Shown here piece by piece: positions 2,755-36,155 of a stretch of DNA of 64,000 bases. Position numbers and translations under genes: made by a program. The stretch covers positions 64,001 to 128,000 of IMG/VR virus record IMGVR_UViG_3300033485_000002; one strand, given 5' to 3'. This DNA is from a virus. Numbering within the stretch: position 1 is the first letter of the stretch; each line of letters begins with the position of its first letter. The notes beneath the pieces were generated by a model that did not search any database, was not told where the DNA came from, and saw only the letters and a program-made list of their open reading frames with translations.

Positions 2755-3366
2755 ATGTCCTACGCAAAGACGTATAAGGCTACGTTTCTTGAAGATATCA
2801 GTCAATTCCCCAGGGTTTGGAACTATGGTCAGTACCGGAGCAACAACTACGGTGAGCACACTGTGGCGGTGTCGGTTGGTGGAGTAGACTTTTTCTATAG
2901 CTACAAGACGCTGGTTGCGTTTTCTGATGATAAGACTCTTGTTGTGCATAGCAACAATTGGACCCGAACAACCGGCAAGCACCTGACCTGGATCAAGCGA
3001 GCACGTCCAGCGGGGATGCCTTGCATTACTGCTGATCATCCTACATTCGTAGCGATGCTCTATAACCTGTTGAGAGCAACAGGGTTAGTCGCCCGCAACT
3101 ACGCGAAGAAGGTGCCTTGTAGGGTTCAGGCGTTGGAGACTGGGGAGATTATCGATGGGAATATCCCGTCAGCGGTGACCCTGACCCCTGGGCGAGCGTA
3201 CGTACGAGATCAGGAACGGAAGATGGCGAAGGCAAAGGAGAAGGAGGAGGAGAAGGCGCGTAAGCTGCGCCTTAAGCTCCGGAAGGAACGGCGGTTGGAG
3301 AAGAAGCGACGGGAGGAGATGTTTTCGGGGTTGATGCCCCTTGAGATAGTGGAGGAAATGCTGTGA
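2755..3366 (+). CDS. Conserved-type phage hypothetical protein with basic coiled C-terminus
   Basis: FYSYKTLVA...WTRTTGKHL motif of a type seen in small phage proteins; GAGG RBS. Confidence 0.65.
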   Translation: MSYAKTYKATFLEDISQFPRVWNYGQYRSNNYGEHTVAVSVGGVDFFYSYKTLVAFSDDKTLVVHSNNWTRTTGKHLTWIKRARPAGMPCITADHPTFVAMLYNLLRATGLVARNYAKKVPCRVQALETGEIIDGNIPSAVTLTPGRAYVRDQERKMAKAKEKEEEKARKLRLKLRKERRLEKKRREEMFSGLMPLEIVEEML

Positions 3367-4939: not shown

Positions 4940-6193
4940 ATGGCTAATCTTACTCCCATCTACGATCACAATTGCACGCTCTGCCCCTTACATAAAGTGC
5001 CGGGGGTTACTTGTTTGTCCGGGATCGGCAACCTGGACGACCCGAGCATCCTTATAGTGGGGGATGGGCCGTCGAAGCAGGAGGTGCTGCTTGGTCGGGC
5101 GTTCGGCGATGAGCGGGGTAGGCTGCTCGCTCAGTCGCTCGATGAGATCGGTTTCCCCATCGGGCCTAAAGGCGATGTGTTTGCTACCTACGCCGTTAAG
5201 TGCTTCCCGTCTGGTAAGGTAAAGGTTAAGGATGCCAAGATTTGCGCGGCGAAGTATCTCAACCAGGAGATCGACCTTTTCCGCCCGAAGTTGGTTATAG
5301 CGCTGGGTAAAACCGCCCAATATGCCGTCTTGGGTAGTACTGCACCTATCTCTAAAACTAGGGGCAAGCTGTTCCCCTTAGTTCGTACCGACGCAGCAGG
5401 AAATGAGTGGACAACCCAGGTCATGCCGGTGGATCATCCATTCTCTATCCTCACCACACCGGCCAAGCTGGACCCGTGGCTCGCTGATCTGCGGCGGGCT
5501 AAGGCGGTGTTTTATGGCGACGGAAATCCTTACTGGTCGCCGGAGAAGCTGGAGCGGTTTGACTTTAAAGTGATTGATTCTATCGCGCAGTTCAAAGCAG
5601 TTGCACGGGAGCTTATTGCCAAGCACAGGGGCGAGTACCTAGCTATCGACATTGAAGCTAGTGGTGTTGATGAGGCTATGAACGATGATGACTTTCGGGT
5701 TTTCAGCTTGCAGTTCGGGCTTATAGATTTGGAGGGGCGCGAGGAACATCCGGTCTACTTCCTACCCATCCAGTCGGCGGGGTTCCCGTGGACATCTGAG
5801 GCTAAGTGGCTGGATAATACCGCCCGCCTGCTGAATCGGTTTCTGAGCACGGACTACTTCAAGCTGGTGGGGCATAACCTAAAGTACGATTTGAAAGCGC
5901 TTAGACGGATTGGTGTAACTGAAGCATATGCCGTCTATGACACGCTGATGGCATGGTCAATTGCACATGGTGAAGCACCGTTGTCTCTGAAAACAATTGC
6001 TTACGAGGTTAGTGATTTAGGTGGGTACGAAGTCCTTATGGATCAGTACTTTAAGGAGCACGGTACTTATGACGCCCCCCCCGAAATTCTAATCTCGTAC
6101 AGTTGCCTTGATGTTGTGCTTGTGCGCTACCTTTTTAGTGAGCTGTACAAAACGATCCTTCAAGAGAAAAAGCGTGTTAACATTGGAGTATGA
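4940..6193 (+). CDS. Uracil-DNA glycosylase family 4-like domain fused to DnaQ-like 3'-5' exonuclease (N-terminal half of split DNA polymerase A)
   Basis: CTLCPLH, IVGDGP, AVKCFP...C, LVIALG and HP motifs (UDG-4); ExoI DIEASG, ExoII GHNLKYD, ExoIII YSCLD. Confidence 0.85.
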   Translation: MANLTPIYDHNCTLCPLHKVPGVTCLSGIGNLDDPSILIVGDGPSKQEVLLGRAFGDERGRLLAQSLDEIGFPIGPKGDVFATYAVKCFPSGKVKVKDAKICAAKYLNQEIDLFRPKLVIALGKTAQYAVLGSTAPISKTRGKLFPLVRTDAAGNEWTTQVMPVDHPFSILTTPAKLDPWLADLRRAKAVFYGDGNPYWSPEKLERFDFKVIDSIAQFKAVARELIAKHRGEYLAIDIEASGVDEAMNDDDFRVFSLQFGLIDLEGREEHPVYFLPIQSAGFPWTSEAKWLDNTARLLNRFLSTDYFKLVGHNLKYDLKALRRIGVTEAYAVYDTLMAWSIAHGEAPLSLKTIAYEVSDLGGYEVLMDQYFKEHGTYDAPPEILISYSCLDVVLVRYLFSELYKTILQEKKRVNIGV

Positions 6194-6197
6194 GCTA

Positions 6198-6267
6198 TTG
6201 TCATGGCTGGGTGCGGTGTGGCGAGGCCAGGTAGGGTATGGCATGGTGTGGCTCGGCAAGGCAGGGG
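6198..6267 (+). ncRNA. Orphan gapped-guide (VIPR-like) unit: TTGTC-AT followed by 12 perfect GGY-NN pentamers
   Basis: ggc tg/ggt gc/ggt gt/ggc ga/ggc ca/ggt ag/ggt at/ggc at/ggt gt/ggc tc/ggc aa/ggc ag; same TGTC handle as the array at 32.75-33.4 kb. Confidence 0.75.
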
Positions 6268-6293
6268 AGCCTCGGTTTAGTAAGGGGGTCTAA

Positions 6294-7778
6294 ATGATTC
6301 GGTTCCATTCGGATGCCGAAGGCGGTAGTCCTCGGTGGCTGTGTGATTATCAGTCTCTATTGGTCAATGCTTTTGTCGATATTGAGAGCTGCGGTTTTCC
6401 TTTCGATCCTATTCAACATGCACAGTTTATCGAGAATGCCGAACGTACTTATGCCGAGTACGAACGGCGATTGATGACCAGCCCCCAACTGCAAGCCTAC
6501 ATCCAGCAGAAGGGGCTGCCCGCTACGGGTAAACGGGCGTTTAACCTGTCCTCGGCCACCCAACTCCAGGAGTTCCTCTTCAGCCCGCGTAGTTCAGGGG
6601 GCCTGGAGCTTGTACCCGTAAAGCGCTCTAAGCTGACGGATAAGGCTAGTTCCGACCGAGAGTCCTTGCAGCATTTCGCTCAGGCAGGCAACGCTTTCTG
6701 CTCGGATCTATTGGTGTTACGGAATTTCGGTAAGCTATTGTCGTCGTTTGGTGAGCCGCTCTTAAAGTTCTACTGTCCTCGCACCGGAGCAGTTCACCCG
6801 ACCTACTTCCTGGCCAAGGTGACAGATAGTGCTGGGGTTGCAGGCGGTACTGCGACCGGACGGCTGTCGTGCAAGCACCCCAACATGCAGCAGCTACCGA
6901 AGCGGGATAAAGATGACAAGGGAATTGGGCTGGCGGGGATCGACGTGCGGAAGTCCTTCGTGCCGTTTCCGGGCCACATCCTTATAGAGTGCGACCAGAG
7001 CCAGATCGAGGTGCGGGTCGCCGGGATGTACGCTAAGGATACGACGATGGGTAAGTTCTTCGATGAGGGGGGAGACTTCCACATCCGGGTGGCCTCTCAG
7101 GTGTTCCAACAGGATTTCGATCATATGGTCGAGGTGTTGGCGAATGAGCACCATCCCGAGTACAAGAAGTTCAAGCAATTCCGTACTGCCGCTAAAACCT
7201 TTACCTTTGGTCTGATGTTCGGTATGGGGTTGAATAAGCTGACCAGACAATCCGGGTTGACTGAGGCTGAAGGTAAAGCTTTTATCGATGAGTACTTTGC
7301 TACTTTCCCTCAGTTCGCTTCGTGGCGTGAGGAGATGATTGATTGGGCTACCGAGCACGGATGGGTCCAAACCTTATTCGGGCGTAAAAGAACCATAAAG
7401 ATTAGCGGCTATGAAACGGAGGATGGTCGGGAGGAACGCATTGGCATCAACACTCCGATTCAGAGTGCGGCGGCAGATATTACTCTGTTTGCGCTCAGCC
7501 GGTTGTGGGAGTTCTTGAAGGCCAACGGTTACGGGGCAAAGATTCTTGGCACGGTCCATGACTCTATTATCTTCTCGGTGCCCTACGAGGAGTTCGAGGA
7601 GCTATTACCGGAGATAGCCCGGAGGATGATCCGTCCACCTGGGCTGGAGTGGCTTTTGGATGACGTGCCGATTCCCCTGTCGATTGGCATTGAGGCGGGG
7701 CCTAACCTCAAGGATATGCACAAGTTAGACCTCGATGACGTGCTGACCTGCTCCCTCGACGTAAAGGATTATCTATGA
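6294..7778 (+). CDS. polA: DNA polymerase family A, polymerase domain
   Basis: TATGRLSCKHPNMQQLP, motif A DQSQIEVR, motif B RTAAKTFTFGLMFG, NTPIQSAAAD, motif C TVHDS. Confidence 0.95.
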   Translation: MIRFHSDAEGGSPRWLCDYQSLLVNAFVDIESCGFPFDPIQHAQFIENAERTYAEYERRLMTSPQLQAYIQQKGLPATGKRAFNLSSATQLQEFLFSPRSSGGLELVPVKRSKLTDKASSDRESLQHFAQAGNAFCSDLLVLRNFGKLLSSFGEPLLKFYCPRTGAVHPTYFLAKVTDSAGVAGGTATGRLSCKHPNMQQLPKRDKDDKGIGLAGIDVRKSFVPFPGHILIECDQSQIEVRVAGMYAKDTTMGKFFDEGGDFHIRVASQVFQQDFDHMVEVLANEHHPEYKKFKQFRTAAKTFTFGLMFGMGLNKLTRQSGLTEAEGKAFIDEYFATFPQFASWREEMIDWATEHGWVQTLFGRKRTIKISGYETEDGREERIGINTPIQSAAADITLFALSRLWEFLKANGYGAKILGTVHDSIIFSVPYEEFEELLPEIARRMIRPPGLEWLLDDVPIPLSIGIEAGPNLKDMHKLDLDDVLTCSLDVKDYL

Positions 7779-25787: not shown

Positions 25788-28108
25788 GAGATTCTTGATG
25801 ATGTGGTGGAAGAAGCTCAAAGTCCGCTTTGAGTGCTGGCGTTGGGGCCACGATTGGTGGTACAGCCGGGACTACGATCGAACGTATCGTAACATCGGCA
25901 TGTTCTACATAAATCGTACGTGTCACACCTGTGGTCGGCGTGAGGTGGGGATGCCCAAGCTGGGCGAGACCGCCTATCAGGATGTATATGGAGACCCTGA
26001 CCGCAGCAAGTTCTTCTGGGTGAAGGAGTCAATAAAGTGAGCGATATGGTGAATGCGTTCTTTGCCAGCCAAGTAGGCTCACTCATCGTGGGCATACTGC
26101 TCGGTATTGCGACCTATCGGTTCATCAAGCTGTGGCGGCGGTGGAGGGTACGGGATGACTGAGTGGGTGCTGAAAGAATGTCCAGGTTGTGGCCGTAAAC
26201 AACCCCCTTTTCTCTATGACGAGGGGGTTGAGTTGTGTATGGGGTGCGCGGATAAGGGCACCACCTATACCGACAAGATGCGGAAGCCAAAATTGGCAAA
26301 AAAGAAGTTGACACTCGAAAGCAAGGACACTATCATTGATTCCGTGAAGAAGCGGAAGTACACCAAGCGAACCAAAGTGCTTGAGGTGGGGGAGCTTGAC
26401 CAGACTGCATTGACTCGTTCGCGGATGATGAAGGAGCTGGACGATGAGTGATGCTGGATGGGTGGTACAGATAATGACCAGCATTAACGGCGGCAATGGG
26501 CAGTGGGTGACTATCTGGAATACTGCAAACTGCCACCGGACTGGTGCGATTGCCGAATGGGACAGGTTGTATGGGGCTTATGACGGTGAATGGGAGTATT
26601 GCCGCAAGAGAAAGCTCTTGCGCTGCGTGCGGTGTGAGGTGAAGCCATGAGTGAGCTTACAGAGCGGCTTATCTCCTGGGCGCAGAACGAGGAGATGATC
26701 GACCAGTACTACACGGACCACGGTAAGGATTGTATGGATGCGGTTGATCAGCTTGAGCGGATGCAAGCGCTGCTCCATGAGGTCGCGTGTTGCGGCGTTG
26801 AGTTTGAAGACGAGCGAGTCAGGTACGTGACCATCCAGATTGACAAAGAAACGCTCGACGCCATCCGTGCTCTGGACGGTGTTGATGTTTCAAACTTGTA
26901 ACATCTACCAGGATTCGGAGATCAATAGCCATGTTTCACGGGTCAACGGATAAGCAGACTACGTGGTGTGGTGAGAGCGTCCACTATGTCAGTGGGTGGC
27001 AGGAAGACGCGAACTACGTGGAGTGCATCGAGTGTCTGAGGGCGAAACTTCATGCCCAGCAGCAAGTGGTGGACGAGGTGTTGCGGGTGATCAGAGAGGA
27101 AGTCTACGGTTTGCAGGATCTGCGGAACGCGCTGCGTGAGGGCGGGTTTCTGGAGGTGAAGCATGAGTAGTTTTAAAACTGCTTGGGTTAAGGCTTGTAA
27201 GGGTTATGAGCCACCGGATCTAGAGGCTGAGATCGCCCGCCTCACCGTAGAGAACAAGCGCCTGCTAGCGGTGGTAGACGTAGCGGTGGAGGCTGTTGAG
27301 AACTGGAAGTACGAAGATGACATGGCTGCTTGGGAGAGCATGAAGAAACTGCATGACATCCTCCGCACCATTGGACGTGGGGTGTATCGTGAGTGACCGG
27401 AGCCAATGATGGACACCTTTCAAATCGTTGTGCTGTTTATCTTCCTCCTCGGCTTTGCTTTTGTGGGTGGCATATGGGTAGAGCGGCACACCACGGAGTT
27501 CAATATTTATCGTAGTTTATCGCGTCCTGATAGGCCGTGTCCGACGTGTGGGAGGAAAAATACTCGCCATGAGTGACTGGACTCGCGATGAGATCGTGTC
27601 GGTGTTGAAGGTGGGCCATGAGGCCGAGATCAAAGAGGCCGACGAGTGGCGACCATTGGCGCAGCACGTATTGGACCTGTTGAAGCTGCACGACAGGAAG
27701 TACGAGAAGCTGGTGGCAGTGGCCCACAATGCCAGCCAGAATGTAGGTATCTGGGCGGATAAGCTGGACCGTGCTCTCAAGGAGCTGGAAGGCAAAGACC
27801 CAAGGGTGTGCCCGAAGTGTCAAAGCCAGCCACCACCGTATACGCTGCCGGATCTGTGGCCGGTGAGAGTCATCCCGGTCACCTGTACGGGTTGTGGAAA
27901 GACGTGGGTGTGGGAGGGTCAACGATGGGAGGGGAACTATGACGCAGAATAACGACTATGTGGTGCAGCTCCAGAAGCTGCTCGCTGCCATCGACTGGTT
28001 GCTCCAGTCGCCGACCAACAAGGACGGGGCTATCCCTGGGGATAGCAAGGCATTTAGAAATCTCATCGAAGTGACTGATAAGGTCACGAAGTTCCTGGTG
28101 GGTAAGTC

Positions 28109-28591
28109 ATGAGTAAGGCGTTCTTTGAGGGCTTGGTAGGGAGCACGATGCTGGCGCTTCAGAAGCAGAATGACGCCTTGAAAGTGGAACTTGCCGCAGT
28201 GGTCAAGGAGCGGGATTTAGTCAAGTCGCAGTATGCGCGGGCGATGGAGCTGGGCCAGCAGTCGATGCGGGTGATGGACGCAGCCTGCCGCACCATTGAC
28301 GCCCATAAGAAGGCCCTGGGAGCGATTGCGGAGATCTACCCCATCAGGGCCACCCCTAGCTTGACCAGCGTGTTGGAGGGGCTGCTGGACCAGGAAGAAT
28401 GCGAACTGTGCGAGGGCAAGGGCAGGGTGCCAGCGTCGATGCACGCGGAGTCCATCATGTCGCCCACCTATGACGGTAGGAACTGCGAGTGTCCACTGTG
28501 TAAGGGTAGCGGCATCAAGTACGACGCAGATGGCTATGTGGCGGCTGACTATCTCTGTAAGATGTGCAAGGGCACGGGGAGGGTCAAGTGA
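28109..28591 (+). CDS. Protein with DnaJ-type CxxCxGxG zinc-finger repeats
   Basis: CELCEGKG, CPLCKGSG, CKMCKGTG. Confidence 0.65.
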   Translation: MSKAFFEGLVGSTMLALQKQNDALKVELAAVVKERDLVKSQYARAMELGQQSMRVMDAACRTIDAHKKALGAIAEIYPIRATPSLTSVLEGLLDQEECELCEGKGRVPASMHAESIMSPTYDGRNCECPLCKGSGIKYDADGYVAADYLCKMCKGTGRVK

Positions 28592-30469
28592 TCCATCAGA
28601 TTAGCTTGGAAGTGGGAGATAAGGTCAAGCTTAACCCGGACATCACAAAGCGCATGAGGTGCATCCAGGACCGAACGTTCAAGCTAGTGATCCCTACTGA
28701 TGTGAAGGAGTGGACGGTCAAGTCGTTGGGGGAAACCATGGTGTCGCTGACTGCCCCAGGGTATGGGGAAAGACCCTATGGCAGCGGGTGTATCACGATG
28801 AACAAGATCGACCTGATCATGGCGATGGAGGACTAATGACCGCAAAAGCTGACGTGCTGGAGTGGCTGACTGAGTGTGCTGAGCAGTATGAGGATGGATT
28901 GTCCAGGGAGGAGCGCAAGAACAAGCGCAAGGTGGCGGCGATGAAAGATAACGTATACCGCGCTGCCATCAAGGAGATCAAGGGGTTGAGGAGGGAGATC
29001 GAGCGCACCGACCTCACCCTGTCCGCGCTGATCACTAAGAACCTCAAGATCCTGGGCATGCTCCGCCTGAATGCTAAGAGCATGGATAAGGTAGACCAGG
29101 AGCTGGAGCACCTGAAGAAGTGGAGCAAGGTGGGCAACTGTTTGATCAGGGTGAGGCAGTCAGATCCTCCGATCCTGGTCAAGCACGAGAACGGAATTAT
29201 TACTGCAAACCTTGATGGCTACGCTATTATCCCAAGGGAGGAGATGTTGTATGGCAGCCCCGATGAACCTGCTGTTTGAGCATCAGGCAAAGGATAAGAT
29301 CTGCCCCATCATCTACATCGGCCAAACCCCAGGGGGATACTGTGTTGGGTCAAGCTGCATGATGTGGCGGTGGGCGGGTGAGCGGGCCGAGGGTGACGCA
29401 GACGTGAAGCACCCGGTGGGCTACTGTGGTCTGTCTGAACTGTCCGAGAGGATTGAATGTCATGAGTAGGGAGAACTTGCTCGAACGGTTGGATAAGAGC
29501 CGGATAGAGGTGGACGACTACTGGAGCTACCTATACGACACGATAGGGGAAGTTCAGGAAGACATCACCACTTTGCGGGAACTGGTGTATGATCTGGTGA
29601 TGCAAACCTGTGCGAGCACCACGGTGCCGGATAAGTTGGACAGCATGGCAATCAGCGCTTATGCGGATGCGATGCGTTACCTGGATACTATCGGGAAGAT
29701 CGTGATCACCGAGGAGCGGGGACGGAGAGTTATTGCCCATCTGCCGGGGGATGACAATGGGGATGCCAATCAAGTCGAAGGGCCACACGACGGAGCATGA
29801 TCTCGGGTGCCTGTGGTGTGTCGTCATATTCTTAGTGCTGGTTGCTGTAGGTGCAGTCATCTACTCGATCATGGGGGTAATGTGAGCGAGTTCGTGCAGG
29901 CGCTGTGGGGTGGCTTCGTGGTCGGGGCGATGATGGGGATGTGCATCGGCATGGTGATGGGCTACAAGCTGGGAAGGGACGACCAATGAGTAAGACGCGG
30001 TTGTGCGATCTATGCGCCTGTCCTATCAAGGACACCAGGAAGAGGATTCGAGTGGTGCCTAAGTTCATCTGGCATCTCCCAACGATAAACGGGGATTTTG
30101 AGGGTAAGCTGGACGTGTGCTATGACTGTTGGTCCTGGTTCAAGCGGTTCATCCAAGAGGGCAAGAAGATCCAGTTTAACCCGGTGGAAGGAGCATTCGA
30201 TGGATCATAAGTCGGTTATGATCGAAAAGGTGGATAATGGCTACGTTATCAGGCTTAATGTGGACGGGCCGATATCGAGTGATTCGGTCACGTATGTTGA
30301 GAAGTTGTGGCTTCAAGCGGCGTGTACGGTGACGGAGTTCTTTGACGAGCAGCTTGCCATCAGCCCGGTAGCGCCACCTATTGTCTCTACCTGGAAGGGT
30401 GAGCCGATCACTGGTCCTCCGGTGTATTCGATTGAGCGGGATGACACGGATCGTTGTTGAGGGGGAGAG

Positions 30470-30964: not shown

Positions 30965-31330
30965 GAGGAGGGGGAGTTATGCTGTGGTTTATCCTGGGTA
31001 TTGCCGTGGGCATCATCGCTTATCAGTACTTTCTCGAACATCCTGATAAGGTCAAGGCTACCTTCAGCAAGCTGTGGCAGATCATCAAGGCTCCCTTCCA
31101 GAAGAAACGCTGATGATCTGGCTCATTTACTTCGTTGGAGTCGGGGTAGCGTTGATCGCGTGTCTGTACTGCATAAGTGTCGTTTTTGACATGGGTCCGC
31201 TGCAAGCTGAAGACACTCTGATGGCTATGATTGCCGCAGTAGTTTGGCCGGTCATTCTTGTGGTCTTCGTGTTCTGGGCCTTCTGTGAGGGGATTGCGAT
31301 AACGTGGAACATGCTCAGTGCGTACTATCG

Positions 31331-31406
31331 GGGCCGTTAGCTCAGTTGGTAGAGCATTTGTCTTACACGCAAGTGGTCGCTGGTTCAAGTCCAGCACGGC
31401 CCACCA
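31331..31406 (+). tRNA. tRNA-Val(TAC)
   Basis: GGGCCGT/ACGGCCC acceptor stem, CT-TAC-AC loop, GTTCAAGTC T-arm, encoded CCA. Confidence 0.95.
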
Positions 31407-31427
31407 AAAATATTTTCTAAGAACCCC

Positions 31428-31456
31428 TTGACAACATCGACCACTTCACCTATCTT
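31428..31456 (+). promoter_or_regulatory. Sigma70-like promoter of the Cas7-like/array operon
   Basis: TTGACA-17 nt-TATCTT, then AGGAGG RBS. Confidence 0.75.
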
Positions 31457-31476
31457 AGGTACAGGAGGACAATACA

Positions 31477-32259
31477 ATGGTACGTAAGAAGAAAGAAGCG
31501 GTCGCCGAAAACGAAGAGATCCAGGTGTTTAAGGTCGAAAGGGGGGAAGTGTCGTACTGTGTTTTGGGTCTTACTCCACTGATCACGGAAGCGATGAGCG
31601 AGAAGGTGAAGCGGGAGCTGTTGCTGCCCAAGGGCCGTAAGACCGCTGCCGACAAGGCGGGCACGGCCAAGCACGATGTGCTGGAGGAGTACCGCAACAG
31701 CACCTATCAGGCGAAGGACGATACGTCTCCGACTCGGATCGTGATTCCGTCTACTGCCTTCAAGGGTGCGCTCAGGGACGTGGCGACCGATATCCCCGGT
31801 GCCGCAAAGGCGCAGATCGGTCGGTTGGCGTTTGTTAAGGGCTACCATATCCCCGTGTTCGGGGTGCCGCAGCTCATCATGTCGGTGGTTCGTAACTCGG
31901 ACCAGAACCATACTCCTGACATTAGGACTCGGGCGATCCTGCCTCGGTGGGCCTGCTATCTCACGATCGAGTACACGATCCCGCTGTTGAATGATGTTGT
32001 CGTGACCAACCTGCTGGCCGCTGCTGGCCTGATGCGGGGTATTGGTGGTTGGCGTCCGCAGAAGGGGGCTGGTGACTTCGGGCAGTTCACGCTCGTTGAC
32101 CAGGACAACCCCGAGTTCTTGGACATCGTTGCCACTGGTGGGCGTGAGCCGCAGGATCTGGCGCTGGCCGATCCTGAGTGTTTCGATAGCGAGACGGTGA
32201 ACATGCTGTCGTGGTTCATGGCGGAAACCAAGCGGCGTGGTCTCAAGGTTGTGAGCTAG
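31477..32259 (+). CDS. Cas7/RAMP-like (Vipr-like) RNA-guided effector protein
   Basis: RAMP hallmarks: G.TPL in the first strand, IPSTAFKGALRD, C-terminal G-rich loop AG..RGIGGWRPQKG.G.FGQF; directly upstream of the pentamer array. Confidence 0.8.
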   Translation: MVRKKKEAVAENEEIQVFKVERGEVSYCVLGLTPLITEAMSEKVKRELLLPKGRKTAADKAGTAKHDVLEEYRNSTYQAKDDTSPTRIVIPSTAFKGALRDVATDIPGAAKAQIGRLAFVKGYHIPVFGVPQLIMSVVRNSDQNHTPDIRTRAILPRWACYLTIEYTIPLLNDVVVTNLLAAAGLMRGIGGWRPQKGAGDFGQFTLVDQDNPEFLDIVATGGREPQDLALADPECFDSETVNMLSWFMAETKRRGLKVVS

Positions 32260-32267
32260 GAGGAATA

Positions 32268-32747
32268 ATGGAACACGAGCGGACGAAGATCATTCGGGAA
32301 GAGCTGATCCGCCTTGAGAACTCGCTGGGGACGTTGACCCCGGACAAGGTGGTCGAAGCAGCTACTCCTGTGAAGAGTCCAATCCACCCTTGCTTCGATT
32401 GGGACAATACCTCGGCAGGGCACAAGTACCGATTGGAGCAGGCGCGTGGTCTTATCCAGTCGGTGAAGTACCGGGTTACGACCGAGAAGAAGGTGTTTAC
32501 GGTGGCTCGGTATGTGCGTGACCCGAGGGTGGACCCTCAAACGCAGGGGTATGTCTCGGTGCCGAAGCTGAAGGAAGATCCTGCTGCGGCCCTGAAGGCG
32601 GTACAGTGGGAGTTTTCCAGAGTGCAGCAGGCACTGGAGCGTTTGGAGATCTTGGCCACGGTGCTGGAAGCCAAGTCGGTGGTTACGGCAGCCCGTAAGC
32701 ACATGAAGCGGGTGCAGGCTAAGGTGGAAAAGTCTTTTGCGATCTAG
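32268..32747 (+). CDS. Accessory protein of the Cas7-like locus (159 aa)
   Basis: GGAGG RBS; LTP..VV.AA....SPIHPCFDWD...A..YRLEQAR.LI motif; lies between effector and array. Confidence 0.75.
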   Translation: MEHERTKIIREELIRLENSLGTLTPDKVVEAATPVKSPIHPCFDWDNTSAGHKYRLEQARGLIQSVKYRVTTEKKVFTVARYVRDPRVDPQTQGYVSVPKLKEDPAAALKAVQWEFSRVQQALERLEILATVLEAKSVVTAARKHMKRVQAKVEKSFAI

Positions 32748-32752
32748 CCGAC

Positions 32753-33404
32753 ATTGTCACGGTTTAGCTGTCAAGGTACGATCGGGATTGTTCGGGTTTG
32801 TCAAGGAAAGTCAAGATCTGGCGCGGTCGGGTGAGGCTGTCGTGGTTCGGTCAGATCCGTTCAGGGATGTTAGGGAAAGATATGGTGTGTTCTGGTGGGG
32901 GAAGATTCGGATGGGCAAGGTGAGGCTGTCCAGGTAAGGTTCGGTGGGATGGGGCGTGTTACGGCGACTTAGGGTTAGTCATGGGCAGGTTCGGCTGTCA
33001 CGGTATGGCACGTTAGTTTCGGGTTAGTCAAGGACGGGAACGGTGCGATCAGGTCTGATCCGGTCTGACTGTCACGGTACGTGTCGTAGGGTAGGAAAAG
33101 GCAAGGCTCAGCATGTTAGGGTTCGGTGAGGCTAGGCTGTCACGGTGTCGTGAGGATGGGACCGGCAGGGCCGGGTTCGTTGCTGGCGTGGCATATTTTG
33201 GCGGGGCTTGGCTGTCATGGTGATTTTTGCGTTCAGGCGTGATTGGGCCTGACAGGATTCGATTAGGCAGGGCCGGGTAAGGTTTGGCTGTCACGGTGGG
33301 ATATGGACGGATCCGGAAGGGAGAGATGCGTTCTGGCGGGGTCTGGTGGGGCTGGGTGAGACCGGGTGGGACGAGATTTGGTAAGATCCGGTCAGGTCTG
33401 ACTG
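32753..33404 (+). ncRNA. Gapped-guide (VIPR-like) array: 8 units of (G/A)(G/A)CTGTC-NN handle plus G-led pentamers
   Basis: Handles at 32766, 32835, 32924, 32993, 33067, 33135, 33210 and 33286 (spacings 69, 89, 69, 74, 68, 75, 76, i.e. 9+5n with small indels); 5-nt periodic G between handles. Confidence 0.85.
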
Positions 33405-33411
33405 GTATGTT

Positions 33412-33487
33412 GGGGGAGTAGCCCAACGGTAGAGGCGGAGGACTTAAAATCCTTTCAGTGTGGGTTCGAATCCCACCTTCCCCACCA
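33412..33487 (+). tRNA. tRNA-Leu(TAA), short variable arm
   Basis: GGGGGAG/CTTCCCC acceptor stem, GAGGA-CT-TAA-AA-TCCTT, GTTCGAATC, CCA. Confidence 0.9.
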
Positions 33488-33497
33488 ATGTGCTAAG

Positions 33498-33568
33498 GGG
33501 GGTATCACTCAGTGGCCGAGTAGCGGGCTTTTAACCCGCCTACCAGGGTTCGATTCCCTGTGCCCCCA
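33498..33568 (+). tRNA. tRNA-Lys(TTT)
   Basis: GGGGGTA/TGCCCCC acceptor stem, GCGGG-CT-TTT-AA-CCCGC, GTTCGATTC; no encoded CCA. Confidence 0.85.
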
Positions 33569-33708
33569 CTTTTGGAGCTAATATGGACGAGCTTAATCAA
33601 AATGTTGAACGGTTGCTGTGGATCTGGAGTCTGCTCTGCCTCAGCGTAACTGTAGTGGGTTTGTTTATTTGGTGGATAGGGAGATATCGTGATAAGTAGG
33701 AGATAGGA

Positions 33709-33912
33709 ATGGCTTCGACTACGGCACTGGATAAGCGACTCACGGAGCTGGAGAACCTCATGAAGGAGGTTATCCGTGCCTCTGAGACAGCGACTCGTGT
33801 TTATGCTGAGAATCAAGAGCCGATCGAGCGCCGCTTCCATACTTTGGAAGCGAGAGTCAGTGCCGAGATCAACGGGGTCATTGAGCGACTGAATAAGTTA
33901 GAGGGCCGTTGA
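33709..33912 (+). CDS. Small coiled-coil protein
   Basis: AGGAG RBS; coupled to the next gene. Confidence 0.55.
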   Translation: MASTTALDKRLTELENLMKEVIRASETATRVYAENQEPIERRFHTLEARVSAEINGVIERLNKLEGR

Positions 33913-36155
33913 TGGCTACATACTACATGCGGGCTGATGGTAGCGCGACGAAAGCTAATGCTACTGGGCCGTCTTCTGATCCCACCAAGTGCATGAACAA
34001 GACCACGCATGACGCGGCCACGTTTTCCCCTGATGACTTCATCATATGCTCCGGGCTGGGTGGGATCTATCGAGGCTACTTCAGACCACCGTCAAGCGGG
34101 ACGGATGGGCATCCCATCACGTACATCGGAAGCGATTCTCCCCATTTTACGGCGAAAGAGTTAGCGACTGGGTGGACGCTCCATGCCGGGAATGTCTGGA
34201 AAGTAGCGTGGACACGGGGCGGTGATGTTAATGCCCAACACCTTTTTATCGACGGGGTAGATCAGGGATTAGGTCAGTCTGCGCTGGTGAATGTTGATGC
34301 CGAGGGTGAGTGGTTTCTTGATGACCCCGGCAACATGTTGTACTTATATGACAGCGGTGGAGATCCTGACGGGCACGTTGCTCCAGGGATTGAGATTAAC
34401 TCCGTTGAGCGCATCATAGAAGCCGGTAAGTCCTATACCATCTTCGATGGTTTGCACTTATCATGGGCGTCCTACGCACAGATCAGGTCGGATAACGCAG
34501 GAAGTCATGTCACTATCCGGAACTGTACTTGTGAGTACGGTAACCGTGGAATCAGTGCAACGACTACTGCGGGTACTTATACTGACTGGGAAATCTATGA
34601 TAATACGCTGCGTTACTTCTGGAACTCTGGGATTGAGTTTCTTCACGGAGGACGAGAGTCGCGCATCTACAGGAATCACATCCATGACGTTGACCATGAC
34701 TCGTTCGCCATTGGTTCAACTTATACGAACGGGATCAAGCTGTGGGATGACGGTGCCCTCACTGGATCTGTCGAAATCTTTGAAAATCTGATTTATGACA
34801 TTGGCCCAGGTGGTGCAGCGTCTGGCCCTGGTCAAGGATCTGGTATCTGGTTTGACCGTATCCAACCTGAAGCTGGTGACGAGTGTGTGGCGTACCACAA
34901 CTTCCTCTACAACTGCTCGGGGACCGGGGTCTTCATCGAGATCTCAAGGCATTGCATTGCCTACTCCAACGTGATGTACAACTGCGGTTATCACTCTGGA
35001 GGAACCGATGAGTTCAGTCCTTCCGGCATGAGAATCGATACTAGGACCGGGTACAATAGTGAATACAATTATGTGTATAACAACACCGTGTATGGGGGCC
35101 GTTGTGGGATGGTTGTGGCCGGTTACTATGATCATACTGCCGTCATTAGCTATAACGAGGTGAAGAACAACATCTTCATCGGCTGGACGGAGCACGGTCT
35201 TATCGCTCGTAACGGTGGGGATAACACTACGCTTCACGGGACCGGGGTTGGCAACGTCTACGAGCACAATTGCCTGGGGCCGGAATCCAATGCGCTTGTG
35301 CAGTGGAACTACCATCATGTTGGAACCCATGATGGGTGGGAAGCGATTGCTGACACTGCACATCATGTCGTTTTGCAGGATTACTGGCTGGATAATACAT
35401 CTCAGCCAGTTGACGGTAGTGGTGGCTATTGGTGGGGCATTGAAGTCCCGCTGAGTGGTACAGGTACAGTCAATGTTAAGCGGATATTTGCAAGGTTGTG
35501 TCGCGTTGGTACTCCTTCGAACAGCACCGCGAGGATGAGGATCTATGACAACAATGCCGGTGCGCCAGGGACCAGCATTGCGGAGACGACGCTTAATATT
35601 TCTGCCGTCACAACCGACAGCGTTGATGGTGATTGGTATGAGTTCGTCTTCTCTAGTTCGGTTACCCTGACCAAAGGTAGTACTTACTACTTTGTGATGG
35701 TTGGAGACTGGACTCACGATAACAACAACTGCGTTAAGATGTTTGGCAGAACCAGTGGTTACACCGGGGTTCATCATTCTTGGCGCTATAGTGGAACCTG
35801 GACAGAGACGACTGCGGCCACATTTGCTTTTATTGCTTTAGACGATACTTATGTCCCTGGGTGGATGCATAACGTCGAAGGAGATCCGCTTCTTGCAGAT
35901 GTTGAGGCCCACCAGTTCTGGCTCACAGAAACCTCTCCCTGCCTTGAAGCTGGAGTGGACCTTGGAGCGGATTACCGGTCTGGACTTCATCCATCGAGCG
36001 TTTGGCCAGATGGTGTAGTGACGGCCAATCAGAGTGGGGATTGGGATATGGGGGCATATATCTTTCCCTCTTCCGGGGGGCATTCAGCACTCCCACTCGG
36101 TCAAGCTTTTGACCAGGATGTCTTTTTCCCATCGTCAATAACTTGGATCGTATGA
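33912..36155 (+). CDS. Right-handed beta-helix (pectin-lyase-like) protein with C-terminal beta-sandwich; probable virion/tailspike-like protein
   Basis: Repeated I.N N.I/V.. turns (YNNTVYG, KNNIF, YRNHIHD); SPCLEAG...DMGAY motif. Confidence 0.7.
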   Translation: MATYYMRADGSATKANATGPSSDPTKCMNKTTHDAATFSPDDFIICSGLGGIYRGYFRPPSSGTDGHPITYIGSDSPHFTAKELATGWTLHAGNVWKVAWTRGGDVNAQHLFIDGVDQGLGQSALVNVDAEGEWFLDDPGNMLYLYDSGGDPDGHVAPGIEINSVERIIEAGKSYTIFDGLHLSWASYAQIRSDNAGSHVTIRNCTCEYGNRGISATTTAGTYTDWEIYDNTLRYFWNSGIEFLHGGRESRIYRNHIHDVDHDSFAIGSTYTNGIKLWDDGALTGSVEIFENLIYDIGPGGAASGPGQGSGIWFDRIQPEAGDECVAYHNFLYNCSGTGVFIEISRHCIAYSNVMYNCGYHSGGTDEFSPSGMRIDTRTGYNSEYNYVYNNTVYGGRCGMVVAGYYDHTAVISYNEVKNNIFIGWTEHGLIARNGGDNTTLHGTGVGNVYEHNCLGPESNALVQWNYHHVGTHDGWEAIADTAHHVVLQDYWLDNTSQPVDGSGGYWWGIEVPLSGTGTVNVKRIFARLCRVGTPSNSTARMRIYDNNAGAPGTSIAETTLNISAVTTDSVDGDWYEFVFSSSVTLTKGSTYYFVMVGDWTHDNNNCVKMFGRTSGYTGVHHSWRYSGTWTETTAATFAFIALDDTYVPGWMHNVEGDPLLADVEAHQFWLTETSPCLEAGVDLGADYRSGLHPSSVWPDGVVTANQSGDWDMGAYIFPSSGGHSALPLGQAFDQDVFFPSSITWIV

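What the first reader, a model, noticed from the sequence alone, without database searches (positions are those of the whole stretch)
31428..33404. Phage-encoded Cas7-like effector + accessory gene + pentamer-coded guide array (VIPR-like RNA-guided system)
Seen in sequence: a promoter (TTGACA-17-TATCTT), a 260-aa protein with RAMP/Cas7 hallmarks (G.TPL, IPSTAFKGALRD, G-rich loop GIGGWRPQKGAGDFGQF), a 159-aa accessory gene, then 650 nt of non-coding DNA. That DNA has 8 (G/A)(G/A)CTGTC handles spaced 9+5n nt apart, with 5-nt periodic G-led triplets alternating with variable dinucleotides. Example, unit 1: ggt AC gat CG gga TT gtt CG ggt TT gtc AA gga AA gtc AA gat CT ggc GC ggt CG ggt GA. No cas1/2/3/5/6 or CRISPR repeats are present in the window. 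The layout matches what I recall of the recently reported VIPR systems (GGY/NN guides recognising gapped DNA targets), which I cannot verify here. Inference: each unit is a processed guide, with one effector protomer bound per pentamer.
Basis: partly seen in the sequence, partly recalled or inferred. Interest (0 to 1): 0.97.

Follow-up and report, generated by a model that had tools for sequence, protein, structure and literature searches.

The report
Phage VIPR locus aimed at integrases
This stretch of a large uncultured phage is a genuine example of the recently described VIPR system (a Cas7-like protein plus guide RNAs made of five-base repeats), and at least three of its guides spell the conserved catalytic motifs of tyrosine integrases, so it probably silences rival integrating elements.

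Summary
Window 31477-33411 carries a 260-aa protein, a 159-aa partner gene 8 nt downstream, and 664 nt of non-coding DNA with strong 5-nt periodicity.

- **Protein:** a confident model (pLDDT 95.7) matches only Cas7/Csm3/Cmr4-type RAMPs. Its glycine-rich loop aligns with the validated Vipr of phage SUSP1 (hhalign 97%).
- **Conservation:** 79 of 80 related viral loci keep the partner gene. 50 of 74 keep a same-strand pentamer array just downstream.
- **Classification:** this is a member of the VIPR family published in 2026 preprints. It is not new in kind, and the scan had already noted it here and on the solo guide.
- **Array layout:** there is no 3' tail. Units abut through a 4-nt TGTC step, where relatives use AGGC. 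The scaffold is G-[G/A/T]-Y, not strict GGY.
- **G-loop residue:** the Asp that SUSP1 needs is Gly here.
- **Targets:** under the published 1-nt skip rule, units 6, 7 and 8 spell integrase motifs NPKI.SERLGHSTV, RLYDLRHT and TGMRPSEALGL. All 40 exact sub-pattern hits in public contigs lie in frame in tyrosine integrase genes.
- **Open:** no natural target above 86% was found, units 1-4 have no target, and expression is untested.

The parts
31428..31456 (+). Promoter-like site TTGACA-17-TATCTT in front of vipr, just after tRNA-Val
   Evidence: Consensus scan, 10 of 12 positions. Not shown to be active.
31477..32259 (+). vipr: 260-aa Cas7-like RAMP protein (Vipr)
   Evidence: The AlphaFold2 model has pLDDT 95.7. 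Foldseek and VIA-align top hits are all Cas7/Csm3/Cmr4. hhalign against SUSP1 Vipr gives 97% probability over the G-loop. The exhaustive representative search found 1560 proteins at E<=0.001, and none of the homologues for which Pfam domains were listed carries a Pfam family.
32268..32747 (+). vap-like accessory gene, 159 aa, function unknown
   Evidence: A homologue lies directly downstream of vipr in 79 of 80 related IMG/VR loci. No Pfam, NCBIfam, PADLOC or PDB match. Only phrog_15946, of unknown function. No profile match to SUSP1 vap1.
32755..32768 (+). Mini-unit: TGTC plus two repeats, opening the array 7 nt after the vap stop
   Evidence: Sequence.
32769..32837 (+). vrRNA unit 1: TGTC plus 13 NN/scaffold repeats, in register
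   Evidence: Parse. No target found.
32838..32926 (+). vrRNA unit 2: 17 repeats, in register
   Evidence: No target found.
32927..32995 (+). vrRNA unit 3: 13 repeats, in register
   Evidence: No target found.
32996..33069 (+). vrRNA unit 4: 14 repeats, in register
   Evidence: The sub-pattern scan gave only one chance hit, multiplied 52 times by near-identical proviruses.
33070..33137 (+). vrRNA unit 5: 13 repeats with a 1-nt deletion
   Evidence: The decode is only loosely integrase-like and is not supported by matches.
33138..33212 (+). vrRNA unit 6: 14 repeats with one 3-nt variable slot. The reverse complement of its NN code spells NPKI.SERLGHSTV
   Evidence: Decode. All 3 IMG/VR and all 23 metagenome exact sub-pattern hits are in frame in tyrosine integrases. 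The best full-unit match is 12 of 14.
33213..33288 (+). vrRNA unit 7: 14 repeats with a 2-nt irregularity. The reverse complement of its NN code spells (K/N)(F/L)RLYDLRHT(C/W)A
   Evidence: Decode. All 10 exact hits in genome contigs are in frame at RLYDLRHT[CW]A of integrases.
33289..33411 (+). vrRNA unit 8: 23-24 repeats, possibly two units with a decayed border near 33350. Its NN code spells TGMRPSEALGLGW... It ends at the first base of tRNA-Leu
   Evidence: Decode. All 4 exact IMG/VR hits are in frame at integrase box I. Cross-matches of 10-12 of 23 occur in loci picked with other units, none of 100 shuffled guides (p<0.01).
6199..6271 (+). Solo vrRNA: TGTC plus 13-14 near-perfect NNGGY repeats, in the gap between the two DNA-polymerase ORFs. 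Same TGTC 5' border as the array
   Evidence: It is the only other 5-nt G-periodic tract in the 168-kb record. Sequence, parse, flanking polymerase halves.
31331..31406 (+). tRNA-Val directly upstream of the cassette
   Evidence: ARAGORN and Rfam.
33412..33569 (+). tRNA-Leu and tRNA-Lys directly downstream. The tRNA-Leu 5' end abuts the last repeat
   Evidence: tRNA flanking is peculiar to this phage: 1 of 57 related loci has any tRNA.

Best explanation
This is a VIPR (Viral Interference Programmable Repeat) locus carried by a large uncultured phage.

**Proposed mechanism**
1. A promoter behind tRNA-Val drives vipr, vap and, on the same strand, an array of about nine guide RNAs (vrRNAs).
2. 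Each guide is a run of 13-24 five-base repeats. Three scaffold bases (G, then G/A/T, then a pyrimidine) are gripped by one Vipr protomer. Two free bases are left exposed.
3. Units abut without a tail. Each starts with a 4-nt TGTC step that breaks the 5-nt register by one base. This probably marks where one Vipr filament ends and the next begins, and where the transcript is cut or trimmed.
4. The last unit ends at the 5' end of tRNA-Leu, where RNase P would cut.
5. By the published rule, the exposed dinucleotides pair with double-stranded DNA while skipping every third base, which is the codon wobble position.
6. Read that way, units 6, 7 and 8 match three conserved motifs of tyrosine integrases.

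The likely job is to bind and silence the integrase genes of satellites, prophages or other integrating elements that compete with this phage. A solo guide elsewhere in the genome uses the same border and presumably the same protein.

**Shown here:** the fold, the homology to SUSP1 Vipr, the conserved gene-plus-array layout, the repeat statistics and the in-frame integrase matches.

**Taken from the papers:** one protomer per repeat, the 1-nt skip rule, and silencing as the outcome.

**Inferred:** transcription, processing at TGTC and by RNase P, and the biological target.

The confidence given (0.85) is for membership of the VIPR family with a working guide array. The integrase-silencing role on its own I put at about 0.55.
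For: **Fold.** pLDDT 95.7. Foldseek's best hits are type VII Cas7 and Csm3 chains (E about 6e-6, probability 1.0). All 95 hits with E<=0.001 that are listed are RAMPs. An independent aligner gives Csm3 9g9a_D at Z 9.7 with 150 residues aligned, Cmr4 6s6b_I at Z 9.0 and Csm3 6ae2_B at Z 8.8.

**Homology to a validated Vipr.** The family profile against SUSP1 Vipr gives hhalign probability 97%, E 9e-11. The alignment matches GVGDWRP..FGRF to GIGGWRPQKGAGDFGQF and the SUSP1 thumb Arg to R152.

**Family.** 1272 and 1560 homologues, none with a Pfam domain.

**Locus conservation.**
- vap follows vipr in 79 of 80 loci.
- A G-period-5 tract on the vipr strand lies within 2 kb downstream in 50 of 74 eligible loci.
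- By contrast, 0 of 45,016 windows in far flanks and 5 of 115,754 on the other strand show it.
- Relatives use the same one-base register step: GGCAGGY spacing is 4 mod 5 in 200 of 293 intervals.

**Repeat anatomy.**

**Targets.**
- Exact sub-patterns of units 8, 6 and 7 hit 4, 3+23 and 10 contigs. All 40 are in frame at integrase box I, PKI.SERLGHSTV or RLYDLRHT.
- Pfam PF00589 was confirmed on the three hit ORFs that were scanned.
- Guides not used for selection match the same genes better than any of 100 shuffled guides in L093, L094, L098 and L090.
- No self-target: every unit scores at shuffled-guide level on the phage's own 168 kb. No integrase is found there either.

**No CRISPR.** No CRISPR-like array and no Cas1.
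Against: - Nothing shows that the array is transcribed, processed or bound.
- The G-loop Asp that reads the first G in SUSP1, and whose loss abolishes silencing there, is Gly191 here.
- Only 53% of scaffolds are strict GGY. GGY-to-GAY changes abolish repression in SUSP1 (paper, fig. S12 legend).
- Units 5-7 carry indels.
- No natural target reaches the paper's 80% threshold except for unit 6 (12 of 14), and those loci were picked with part of unit 6. Unit 8 reaches 12 of 23 and unit 7 reaches 11 of 15.
- Units 1-4 have no target.
- The accessory protein has no detectable relation to SUSP1 vap1 and no predicted function.
- The VIPR type (I-VII) could not be assigned, because the paper's figures and data files are not held.
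Confidence: 0.85

Rival explanations
1. The locus is a decaying or disabled VIPR. The protein has lost the Asp that reads the first scaffold G, and the array is drifting. The locus is then a relic, not a working weapon.
For: - Gly191 sits where 93 of 102 family representatives and SUSP1 have Asp.
- The second scaffold base is G in only 62-67% of repeats. That is below the 10th percentile of Asp-type relatives.
- Units 5-7 have register slips.
- The best natural matches for units 7 and 8 are only 73% and 52%.
Against: - Both ORFs are intact, with good ribosome-binding sites.
- 'GGWR' recurs in six diverged representatives, including the closest one at 54% identity. It therefore looks like a retained lineage variant.
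- Those relatives still carry long arrays.
- The other contact residues (W192, R193, thumb R152) are conserved.
- Four units and the solo guide are in perfect register.
- Asp-type relatives also show relaxed second positions, ranging 50-97%.
Confidence: 0.1
2. The system works, but the guides regulate something other than integrases, for example host genes or the phage's own programme. On this reading the integrase resemblance of units 6-8 is incidental or ancestral.
For: - Units 1-4 show no integrase match.
- No target at or above 80% was found for units 7 and 8.
- The host is unknown.
Against: - Three neighbouring guides decode to three different hallmark motifs of one enzyme family.
- 40 of 40 exact hits are in frame in that family.
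- No guide matches the phage's own record above shuffled level.
Confidence: 0.08
3. The G-rich pentamer tract is a DNA-level element, such as G-quadruplex-prone DNA or a replication or packaging signal. It would then be merely adjacent to a RAMP-like gene, not a guide array.
For: GG every five bases on one strand could form two-tetrad quadruplexes (inference). Transcription is not shown.
Against: - The association with vipr is strand-specific and conserved in 50 of 74 loci, against zero in far flanks.
- Two of five positions are hypervariable and carry protein-motif information in frame.
- Published small-RNA sequencing and cryo-EM of homologous systems show such tracts are RNAs bound by Vipr.
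Confidence: 0.02

Closest known systems
VIPR systems in general (Vipr + vap + vrRNAs; bioRxiv 10.64898/2026.04.26.720920 and 10.64898/2026.04.26.720927)
   Same: - A phage-borne, minimal two-gene locus.
- A single-RRM RAMP with G-loop and thumb.
- Adjacent arrays of five-base repeats with three conserved and two hypervariable bases.
- No cas genes or CRISPR repeats.
- Guides that match coding DNA of other mobile elements with the skipped base on the wobble position.
- No self-targets.
   Different: - This locus comes from an uncultured metagenomic phage, so it was probably not in the paper's NCBI-derived set.
- The scaffold is G-[G/A/T]-Y, not GGY.
- The G-loop Asp is Gly.
- The cassette sits between tRNA genes.
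- The type (I-VII) could not be assigned.
Type II VIPR of Escherichia phage SUSP1 (NC_028808; vipr at 28474-29061, vap1 at 28031-28471, minus strand, as I read the record)
   Same: - Gene order is vipr, then vap, then a downstream vrRNA array.
- The G-loop motif GxG(D)WR..G.F is alignable (hhalign 97%).
- The thumb Arg is conserved.
   Different: - Only 53 columns align. The protein here is 260 aa against 195 aa.
- SUSP1 vrRNAs end in a roughly 40-nt structured tail. Here units abut with a 4-nt TGTC step and no tail.
- The vap here shows no profile similarity to vap1.
Staggered vrRNA arrays (fig. S18 of the first preprint), as seen in this protein's own clade, e.g. Mycobacterium phage Mattes gp52 and about 40 IMG/VR loci
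   Same: - Head-to-tail units whose borders shift the 5-nt register by one base.
- Unit length is 5n+4.
- The same vipr-vap pair is present.
   Different: - Relatives use GGC-AGGC borders and units of 44-64 nt. Here the border is GGC-TGTC and units are 69-123 nt.
- I could not see fig. S18, so equating the two layouts rests on its legend.
Cas7 family backbone subunits of class 1 CRISPR effectors (Csm3, Cmr4, type VII Cas7)
   Same: Same fold and the same RNA-gripping elements (Z 8-9.7).
   Different: - No CRISPR repeats, no Cas1, and no other cas genes were noticed.
- Periodicity is 5 nt, not 6 nt.
- The guide is discontinuous.
- Sequence identity is only 10-17%.
Phage-encoded CRISPR-Cas of Vibrio phage ICP1, aimed at the PLE satellite (from my own knowledge, not checked here)
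   Same: A lytic phage carrying an RNA-guided system aimed at a parasitic integrating element.
   Different: - ICP1 has a full CRISPR-Cas system with target cleavage and spacer acquisition.
- Here the published outcome is binding and silencing.
- How VIPR guides are acquired is unknown.

Membership tests
VIPR | Vipr protein: a RAMP with RRM core, glycine-rich loop and thumb, and no second RRM | tested here: met
   The model has pLDDT 95.7 with a single beta-alpha-beta core, a long beta-hairpin at 132-155 and the G-loop at 188-204. All top structural matches are Cas7/Csm3/Cmr4.
VIPR | Detectable homology to an experimentally validated Vipr | tested here: met
   hhalign of the 102-sequence family profile against SUSP1 Vipr: probability 97%, E 9e-11, 53 columns covering thumb base, last strand and G-loop.
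VIPR | Residues that grip the GGY scaffold in the cryo-EM structure (thumb Arg, G-loop Asp-Trp-Arg). This is a functional hallmark, not a formal criterion | tested here: inconclusive
   R152, W192 and R193 are conserved. The Asp is Gly191 here and in 6 of 102 representatives.
VIPR | Minimal locus: vipr plus one accessory (vap) gene | tested here: met
   The 159-aa ORF starts 8 nt after vipr. It is syntenic in 79 of 80 related loci.
VIPR | Adjacent tandem YNNGG (GGY/NN) repeats or a related consensus, at least four units, on the vipr strand | tested here: met
   About 120 repeats in nine units. The region is one of only two such tracts in 168 kb. The consensus is relaxed: G 95%, then G 67% / A 18% / T 15%, then Y 88%.
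VIPR | Hypervariable NN between conserved scaffold bases | tested here: met
   All 16 dinucleotides are used at near-even base composition.
VIPR | No CRISPR array and no cas operon | tested here: met
   No CRISPR-like tandem array in the window. No Cas1 in the 168-kb record. PADLOC gives only a marginal Csm3 hit on Vipr itself. Other cas families were not searched one by one.
VIPR | Targets follow the 1-nt skip rule, mostly with the skip on the codon wobble base, in other mobile elements and not in self | tested here: met
   This holds for units 6-8 only: 40 of 40 exact sub-pattern hits are in frame in tyrosine integrases. No self-match exceeds shuffled guides. Units 1-5 remain unassigned.
VIPR | vrRNAs are expressed, processed to about 100 nt and co-purify with Vipr | not testable with these tools
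   Needs small-RNA sequencing and pull-down.
VIPR type II (SUSP1-like) | Each vrRNA ends in an invariant structured 3' tail; accessory gene is vap1 | tested here: not met
   There is no tail: units abut through TGTC, whereas SUSP1 has tails. The vap profile against SUSP1 vap1 gives probability 0.1%. The locus is therefore not filed under type II.
CRISPR-Cas class 1 (type III-like) | Cas7 backbone together with CRISPR repeats and other cas genes | tested here: not met
   Only the Cas7-like fold is shared.

The most novel reading that the evidence does not exclude
The array is a broad-spectrum anti-integrase weapon. Its guides are written against catalytic motifs that tyrosine recombinases cannot change (box I TGxRxSE..L.W, HxLRHT, LGHS). 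Because Vipr skips the wobble base, one guide could then silence a whole family of integrases in satellites and prophages, not just one rival.

A lineage-specific G-loop variant (Gly in place of the Asp that reads the scaffold) may go with a relaxed G-[G/A/T]-Y scaffold. The 4-nt TGTC step plus a flanking tRNA may define guide ends without any dedicated processing enzyme.
Probability: 0.3. Interest if true: 0.7.

Novelty: new member of a known kind. Interest (0 to 1): 0.5.

Why it matters
VIPR was described only in 2026, and few loci have been dissected. This one adds four things.

- **A target class.** The guides point at the catalytic motifs of tyrosine integrases. That fits the published picture of inter-element warfare. 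It also suggests how wobble-skipping can give one guide reach over many diverged genes.
- **Natural test cases for the scaffold rules.** The Gly variant of a residue that is essential in SUSP1, the relaxed scaffold, and a relative with GGA scaffolds all bear on which bases Vipr really needs.
- **A tail-less array.** Its borders are a one-base register slip, which bears on how guides are measured and cut.
- **Cultured relatives.** The same clade includes Mycobacterium phage Mattes gp52 and Gordonia phage Pipp gp42. These infect laboratory hosts, so the predictions could be tested at the bench.

It does not change what is known about the kind of system.

Tried and rejected
**Structure and family searches**
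- Single-sequence AlphaFold2 of Vipr gave pLDDT 40 and was useless. It was replaced by the alignment-based model.
- phmmer of Vipr against PDB sequences gave nothing meaningful.
- Pfam and NCBIfam returned nothing for either protein.
- PADLOC gave only a marginal Csm3 hit, E 0.037.
- Rfam found only the tRNAs in 31000-34000.
- Tandem Repeats Finder does not see the pentamer array, which is too variable.

**Accessory protein (vap)**
- A pairwise BLAST hint to SUSP1 vap1 (E 6e-4) was not upheld by the profile comparison.
- The PDB profile search returned only coiled-coil noise.
- A Pfam scan of 43 members returned only scattered chance hits.
- The protein atlas returned only viral hypothetical clusters.
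- Both structure-prediction jobs had gone to Vipr, so vap was not folded.

**Target scans that found nothing**
- Unit 8, 13 dinucleotides, viral contigs.
- Unit 8, dinucleotides 7-16, viral contigs.
- Unit 8, 16 dinucleotides, metagenomes.
- Unit 7, viral contigs.
- Unit 2, viral contigs.
- Unit 4 gave 52 hits. They are one near-identical provirus sequence, out of frame, with no extension beyond the 9 dinucleotides searched. I rejected them as one chance hit.

**Ideas tested and not supported**
- Gly191 explains the relaxed second scaffold base. Two Gly-type loci are relaxed (62%, 66% G) and two are not (96%, 79%). Asp-type loci range 50-97%.
- tRNA flanking is a family trait. Only 1 of 57 related loci has any tRNA.
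- The extra base in unit 6 keeps a target wobble base. The Ser codon opposite it is AGC in 17 and AGT in 9 of 26 hits, which is undecided.
- Units 5-7 tile one integrase collinearly. This holds for units 6 and 7: same strand, same order, a five-codon gap in every locus where both matched. Two units in order could be chance (about 1 in 4). Unit 5's assignment is unsupported.

**Not available**
- The preprint's supplementary data and figures are not held, so the VIPR type could not be assigned.
Full report
**1. What is there**

The finding sits in an IMG/VR virus record of 168,260 bp, estimated 77% complete. The window is bases 64001-128000 of that record. The phage has no close cultured relative: its DNA polymerase is below 31% identical to anything in the phage collection. 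Most large ORFs have no PHROG match.

In order on the + strand, the region holds the following:
- tRNA-Val, 31331-31406.
- A promoter-like site, 31428-31456 (10 of 12 consensus positions).
- A 260-aa ORF, 31477-32259, behind AGGAGG.
- A 159-aa ORF, 32268-32747, behind GGAGG, starting 8 nt after the first stop.
- 664 nt without a credible gene.
- tRNA-Leu at 33412, then tRNA-Lys at 33498.

**2. The array is real and non-random**

The heptamer is not enriched in the window as a whole, so the signal is the clustering. Spacings are 69, 89, 69, 74, 68, 75 and 76 nt.

Base autocorrelation peaks at every multiple of 5. A scan of the whole record for 5-nt periodicity of G picks out only this tract and one other, at window 6161-6320.

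The conserved core of each border is TGTC, a 4-nt step between pentamers that are otherwise in phase. A register-aware parse gives nine units:
- A two-repeat mini-unit (32755-32768).
- Four units in perfect register, with 13, 17, 13 and 14 repeats.
- Three units with slips of -1, +1 and +2 nt.
- A last unit of 23-24 repeats, which may hide a decayed border near 33350.

Over 120 repeats, scaffold position 1 is G in 95%. Position 2 is G 67%, A 18%, T 15% and never C. Position 3 is a pyrimidine in 88%. The two variable positions use all 16 dinucleotides. Only 53% of scaffolds are strict GGY.

TGTC precedes the first unit and the solo guide but does not follow the last unit. It therefore behaves as a 5' border.

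**3. The protein is a Cas7-like RAMP related to a validated Vipr**

Sequence libraries say little. Pfam and NCBIfam return nothing. PHROGs gives phrog_4652, of unknown function. PADLOC gives a marginal Csm3 hit over 24 residues.

The family is large. The word-indexed collection yields 1272 homologues. The exhaustive search yields 1560 representatives, and none has a Pfam domain.

A single-sequence fold failed. With a 102-sequence alignment the model reached pLDDT 95.7 and pTM 0.89. Foldseek against the PDB returns only RAMPs at the top: type VII Cas7, Csm3, Cmr4 and Cas7-11, with E down to 6.5e-6. An aligner that does not depend on Foldseek agrees (Csm3 Z 9.7, Cmr4 Z 9.0, Csm3 Z 8.8, then Cas7-11, Cmr6, Csf2, Cas6).

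I then located the published reference system in the Escherichia phage SUSP1 record. Two small minus-strand genes there are flanked by about 500-nt unannotated gaps full of GGT/NN repeats with hairpin tails. The family profile aligns to the SUSP1 195-aa protein with 97% probability (E 9e-11). The alignment covers the end of the thumb, the last strand and the G-loop.

I mapped the contacts reported in the cryo-EM preprint:
- The thumb Arg corresponds to R152, conserved in 98 of 102 representatives.
- The G-loop Trp and Arg correspond to W192 and R193. R193 is invariant.
- The Asp whose Ala substitution abolishes silencing in SUSP1 is Gly191 here.

Gly at that site occurs in 6 of 102 representatives, always as GGWR, including the closest one. 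It therefore looks like a lineage variant, not a lesion.

**4. The layout is conserved across the family**

In 80 related IMG/VR loci:
- A homologue of the 159-aa protein lies directly downstream of vipr in 79.
- A strong G-period-5 tract lies within 2 kb downstream on the same strand in 50 of 74 loci with enough sequence, and upstream in 9.
- Not one of 45,016 windows in distant flanks passes the same threshold. Only 5 of 115,754 windows do on the opposite strand.

Relatives use NNGGC repeats whose units are separated by GGC-AGGC. This is again a 4-nt step. GGCAGGY spacing is 4 mod 5 in 200 of 293 intervals, and typical units are 44-64 nt. By its legend, this matches the 'staggered arrays' of the preprint's fig. 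[quoted passage not shown] I could not see the figure.

This phage differs from its relatives in border (TGTC), unit length (69-123 nt) and scaffold (mostly GGT, and more relaxed). Its second-position G content of 62% is below the 10th percentile of Asp-type relatives, whose median is 79%.

The same clade includes cultured actinophages:
- Mycobacterium phage Mattes gp52 has an NNGGC array in the gap just upstream.
- Gordonia phage Pipp gp42 is followed by a pentamer tract that is annotated as a protein gene.

**5. The accessory gene**

It has no Pfam, NCBIfam, PADLOC or PDB relative. It shows no profile similarity to SUSP1 vap1. Its atlas neighbours are all viral hypothetical proteins. Its strict synteny is the only evidence that it belongs to the system.

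**6. What the guides point at**

The preprint shows that the NN bases pair with DNA while one base is skipped, and that the skipped base usually falls on the codon wobble position.

Earlier notes of this scan suggested that some units decode to integrase motifs. I tested that independently. Decoding NN as codon positions 1-2 gives:
- Unit 8, forward: T-G-(I/M)-R-P-(R/S)-(D/E)-A-L-G-L-G-(C/W)...
- Unit 7, reverse complement: (K/N)-(F/L)-R-L-Y-(D/E)-L-(R/S)-(H/Q)-T-(C/W)-A.
- Unit 6, reverse complement: (K/N)-P-(K/N)-(I/M)-T-S-(D/E)-R-L-G-(H/Q)-S-T-V.

These are box I, the HxLRHT box and the LGHS box of tyrosine recombinases.

I then scanned public collections with exact sub-patterns, with N at every skipped base:

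| Unit | Sub-pattern | Collection | Hits | Where they fall |
|---|---|---|---|---|
| 8 | 10 dinucleotides | IMG/VR | 4 | TGMRPSEALGL |
| 6 | 9 dinucleotides | IMG/VR | 3 | SERLGHSTV |
| 7 | 10 dinucleotides | species-representative genomes | 10 | RLYDLRHT[CW]A |
| 6 | 12 dinucleotides | JGI metagenomes | 23 | PKI.SERLGHSTV |

All 40 hits are in frame. Of the 23 metagenome hits, all are followed by the catalytic-Tyr region and 21 are preceded by HDLRH. All three hit ORFs that I scanned (of the 40) pass Pfam PF00589.

The cross-checks are not circular:
- In loci picked with unit 7, unit 8 matches box I at 10-12 of 23 and unit 6 matches its site at 7-9 of 14.
- In a locus picked with unit 6, unit 8 reaches 10 of 23.
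- Each of these exceeds nearly all of 100 dinucleotide-order shuffles (p<=0.02).

Units 6 and 7 bind neighbouring sites on the same strand, five codons apart, in the same order as in the array.

No guide matches the phage's own 168 kb above shuffled level. No integrase is detectable there.

The limits are plain:
- The best full-length matches are 12 of 14 (unit 6), 11 of 15 (unit 7) and 12 of 23 (unit 8).
- The true target element was not found, and longer exact patterns returned nothing.
- Units 1-4 have no target.

**7. How it most likely works**

*Shown here:*
- A Cas7-fold protein homologous to a validated Vipr.
- A conserved vipr-vap-array cassette.
- Repeat anatomy with three constrained and two free bases.
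- One-base register steps between units.
- Three guides that encode integrase motifs in frame.

*Taken from the two preprints:*
- One Vipr protomer per repeat, assembling into a helical filament.
- The scaffold bases are flipped out and gripped, and the NN bases are presented.
- DNA is read with every third base skipped.
- Binding represses transcription.

*Inferred:*
- The cassette is transcribed from the 31428 promoter, and perhaps from a weaker site at 32754.
- The 4-nt step interrupts the filament register and so defines guide ends.
- Exposed RNA between filaments is cut or trimmed by host nucleases.
- RNase P at tRNA-Leu sets the last 3' end.
- The complexes sit on integrase genes of satellites or prophages in the host and block their excision or integration during infection.

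I put about 0.9 on membership of the VIPR family and about 0.55 on the integrase-silencing role.

**8. Novelty and score**

The kind of system is already known from preprints of April-June 2026. The scan had already flagged this stretch and the solo guide. The locus is a new member.

Its specific features are the TGTC border, the long units, the relaxed scaffold, Gly191, the tRNA flanks and the integrase-motif guides. These are variations inside the diversity the preprint already describes (seven types, staggered arrays, alternative consensus repeats). They are useful leads, not a new category.

Noticed in passing
window 6199-6271 (+): A solo vrRNA lies in the 100-nt gap between the two DNA-polymerase ORFs (4940-6193 and 6294-7778). 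It consists of TGTC followed by 13-14 near-perfect NNGGY repeats. It is the only other 5-nt G-periodic tract in the 168-kb record and shares the array's 5' border. Its target was not studied here, because an earlier follow-up of the scan covers it.
   Followed up: partly
L186 2119-2375 (Mycobacterium phage Mattes, NC_051681) and L185 about 3231-3320 (Gordonia phage Pipp, MN234179): Two cultured actinophages carry Vipr homologues (gp52 and gp42, about 28% identity) with adjacent pentamer arrays. In Pipp the array is annotated as protein gene 43, which is probably a mis-call. Both phages infect laboratory hosts.
   Followed up: partly
L103 1311-1600: A relative has the G-loop GLGGWR and an array whose scaffold is GGA, not GGY (A at position 3 in 73% of repeats). 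The cryo-EM paper describes a pocket in SUSP1 that excludes purines at that position.
   Followed up: no
window 31331-31406 and 33412-33569: The VIPR cassette sits inside a small tRNA cluster (Val | cassette | Leu, Lys). Only 1 of 57 related loci has any tRNA, so the cassette may have been inserted into a tRNA cluster in this phage.
   Followed up: partly
L133-L184: Fifty-two IMG/VR proviruses from isolate genomes share one near-identical sequence that matched a 9-dinucleotide piece of unit 4. The match is out of frame and does not extend. It shows how database redundancy can inflate pattern-hit counts.
   Followed up: yes
window 4940-7778: The phage's family A-type DNA polymerase is split into two ORFs, an exonuclease-side half and a polymerase half, both matching phrog_17. 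The solo guide lies between them.
   Followed up: no
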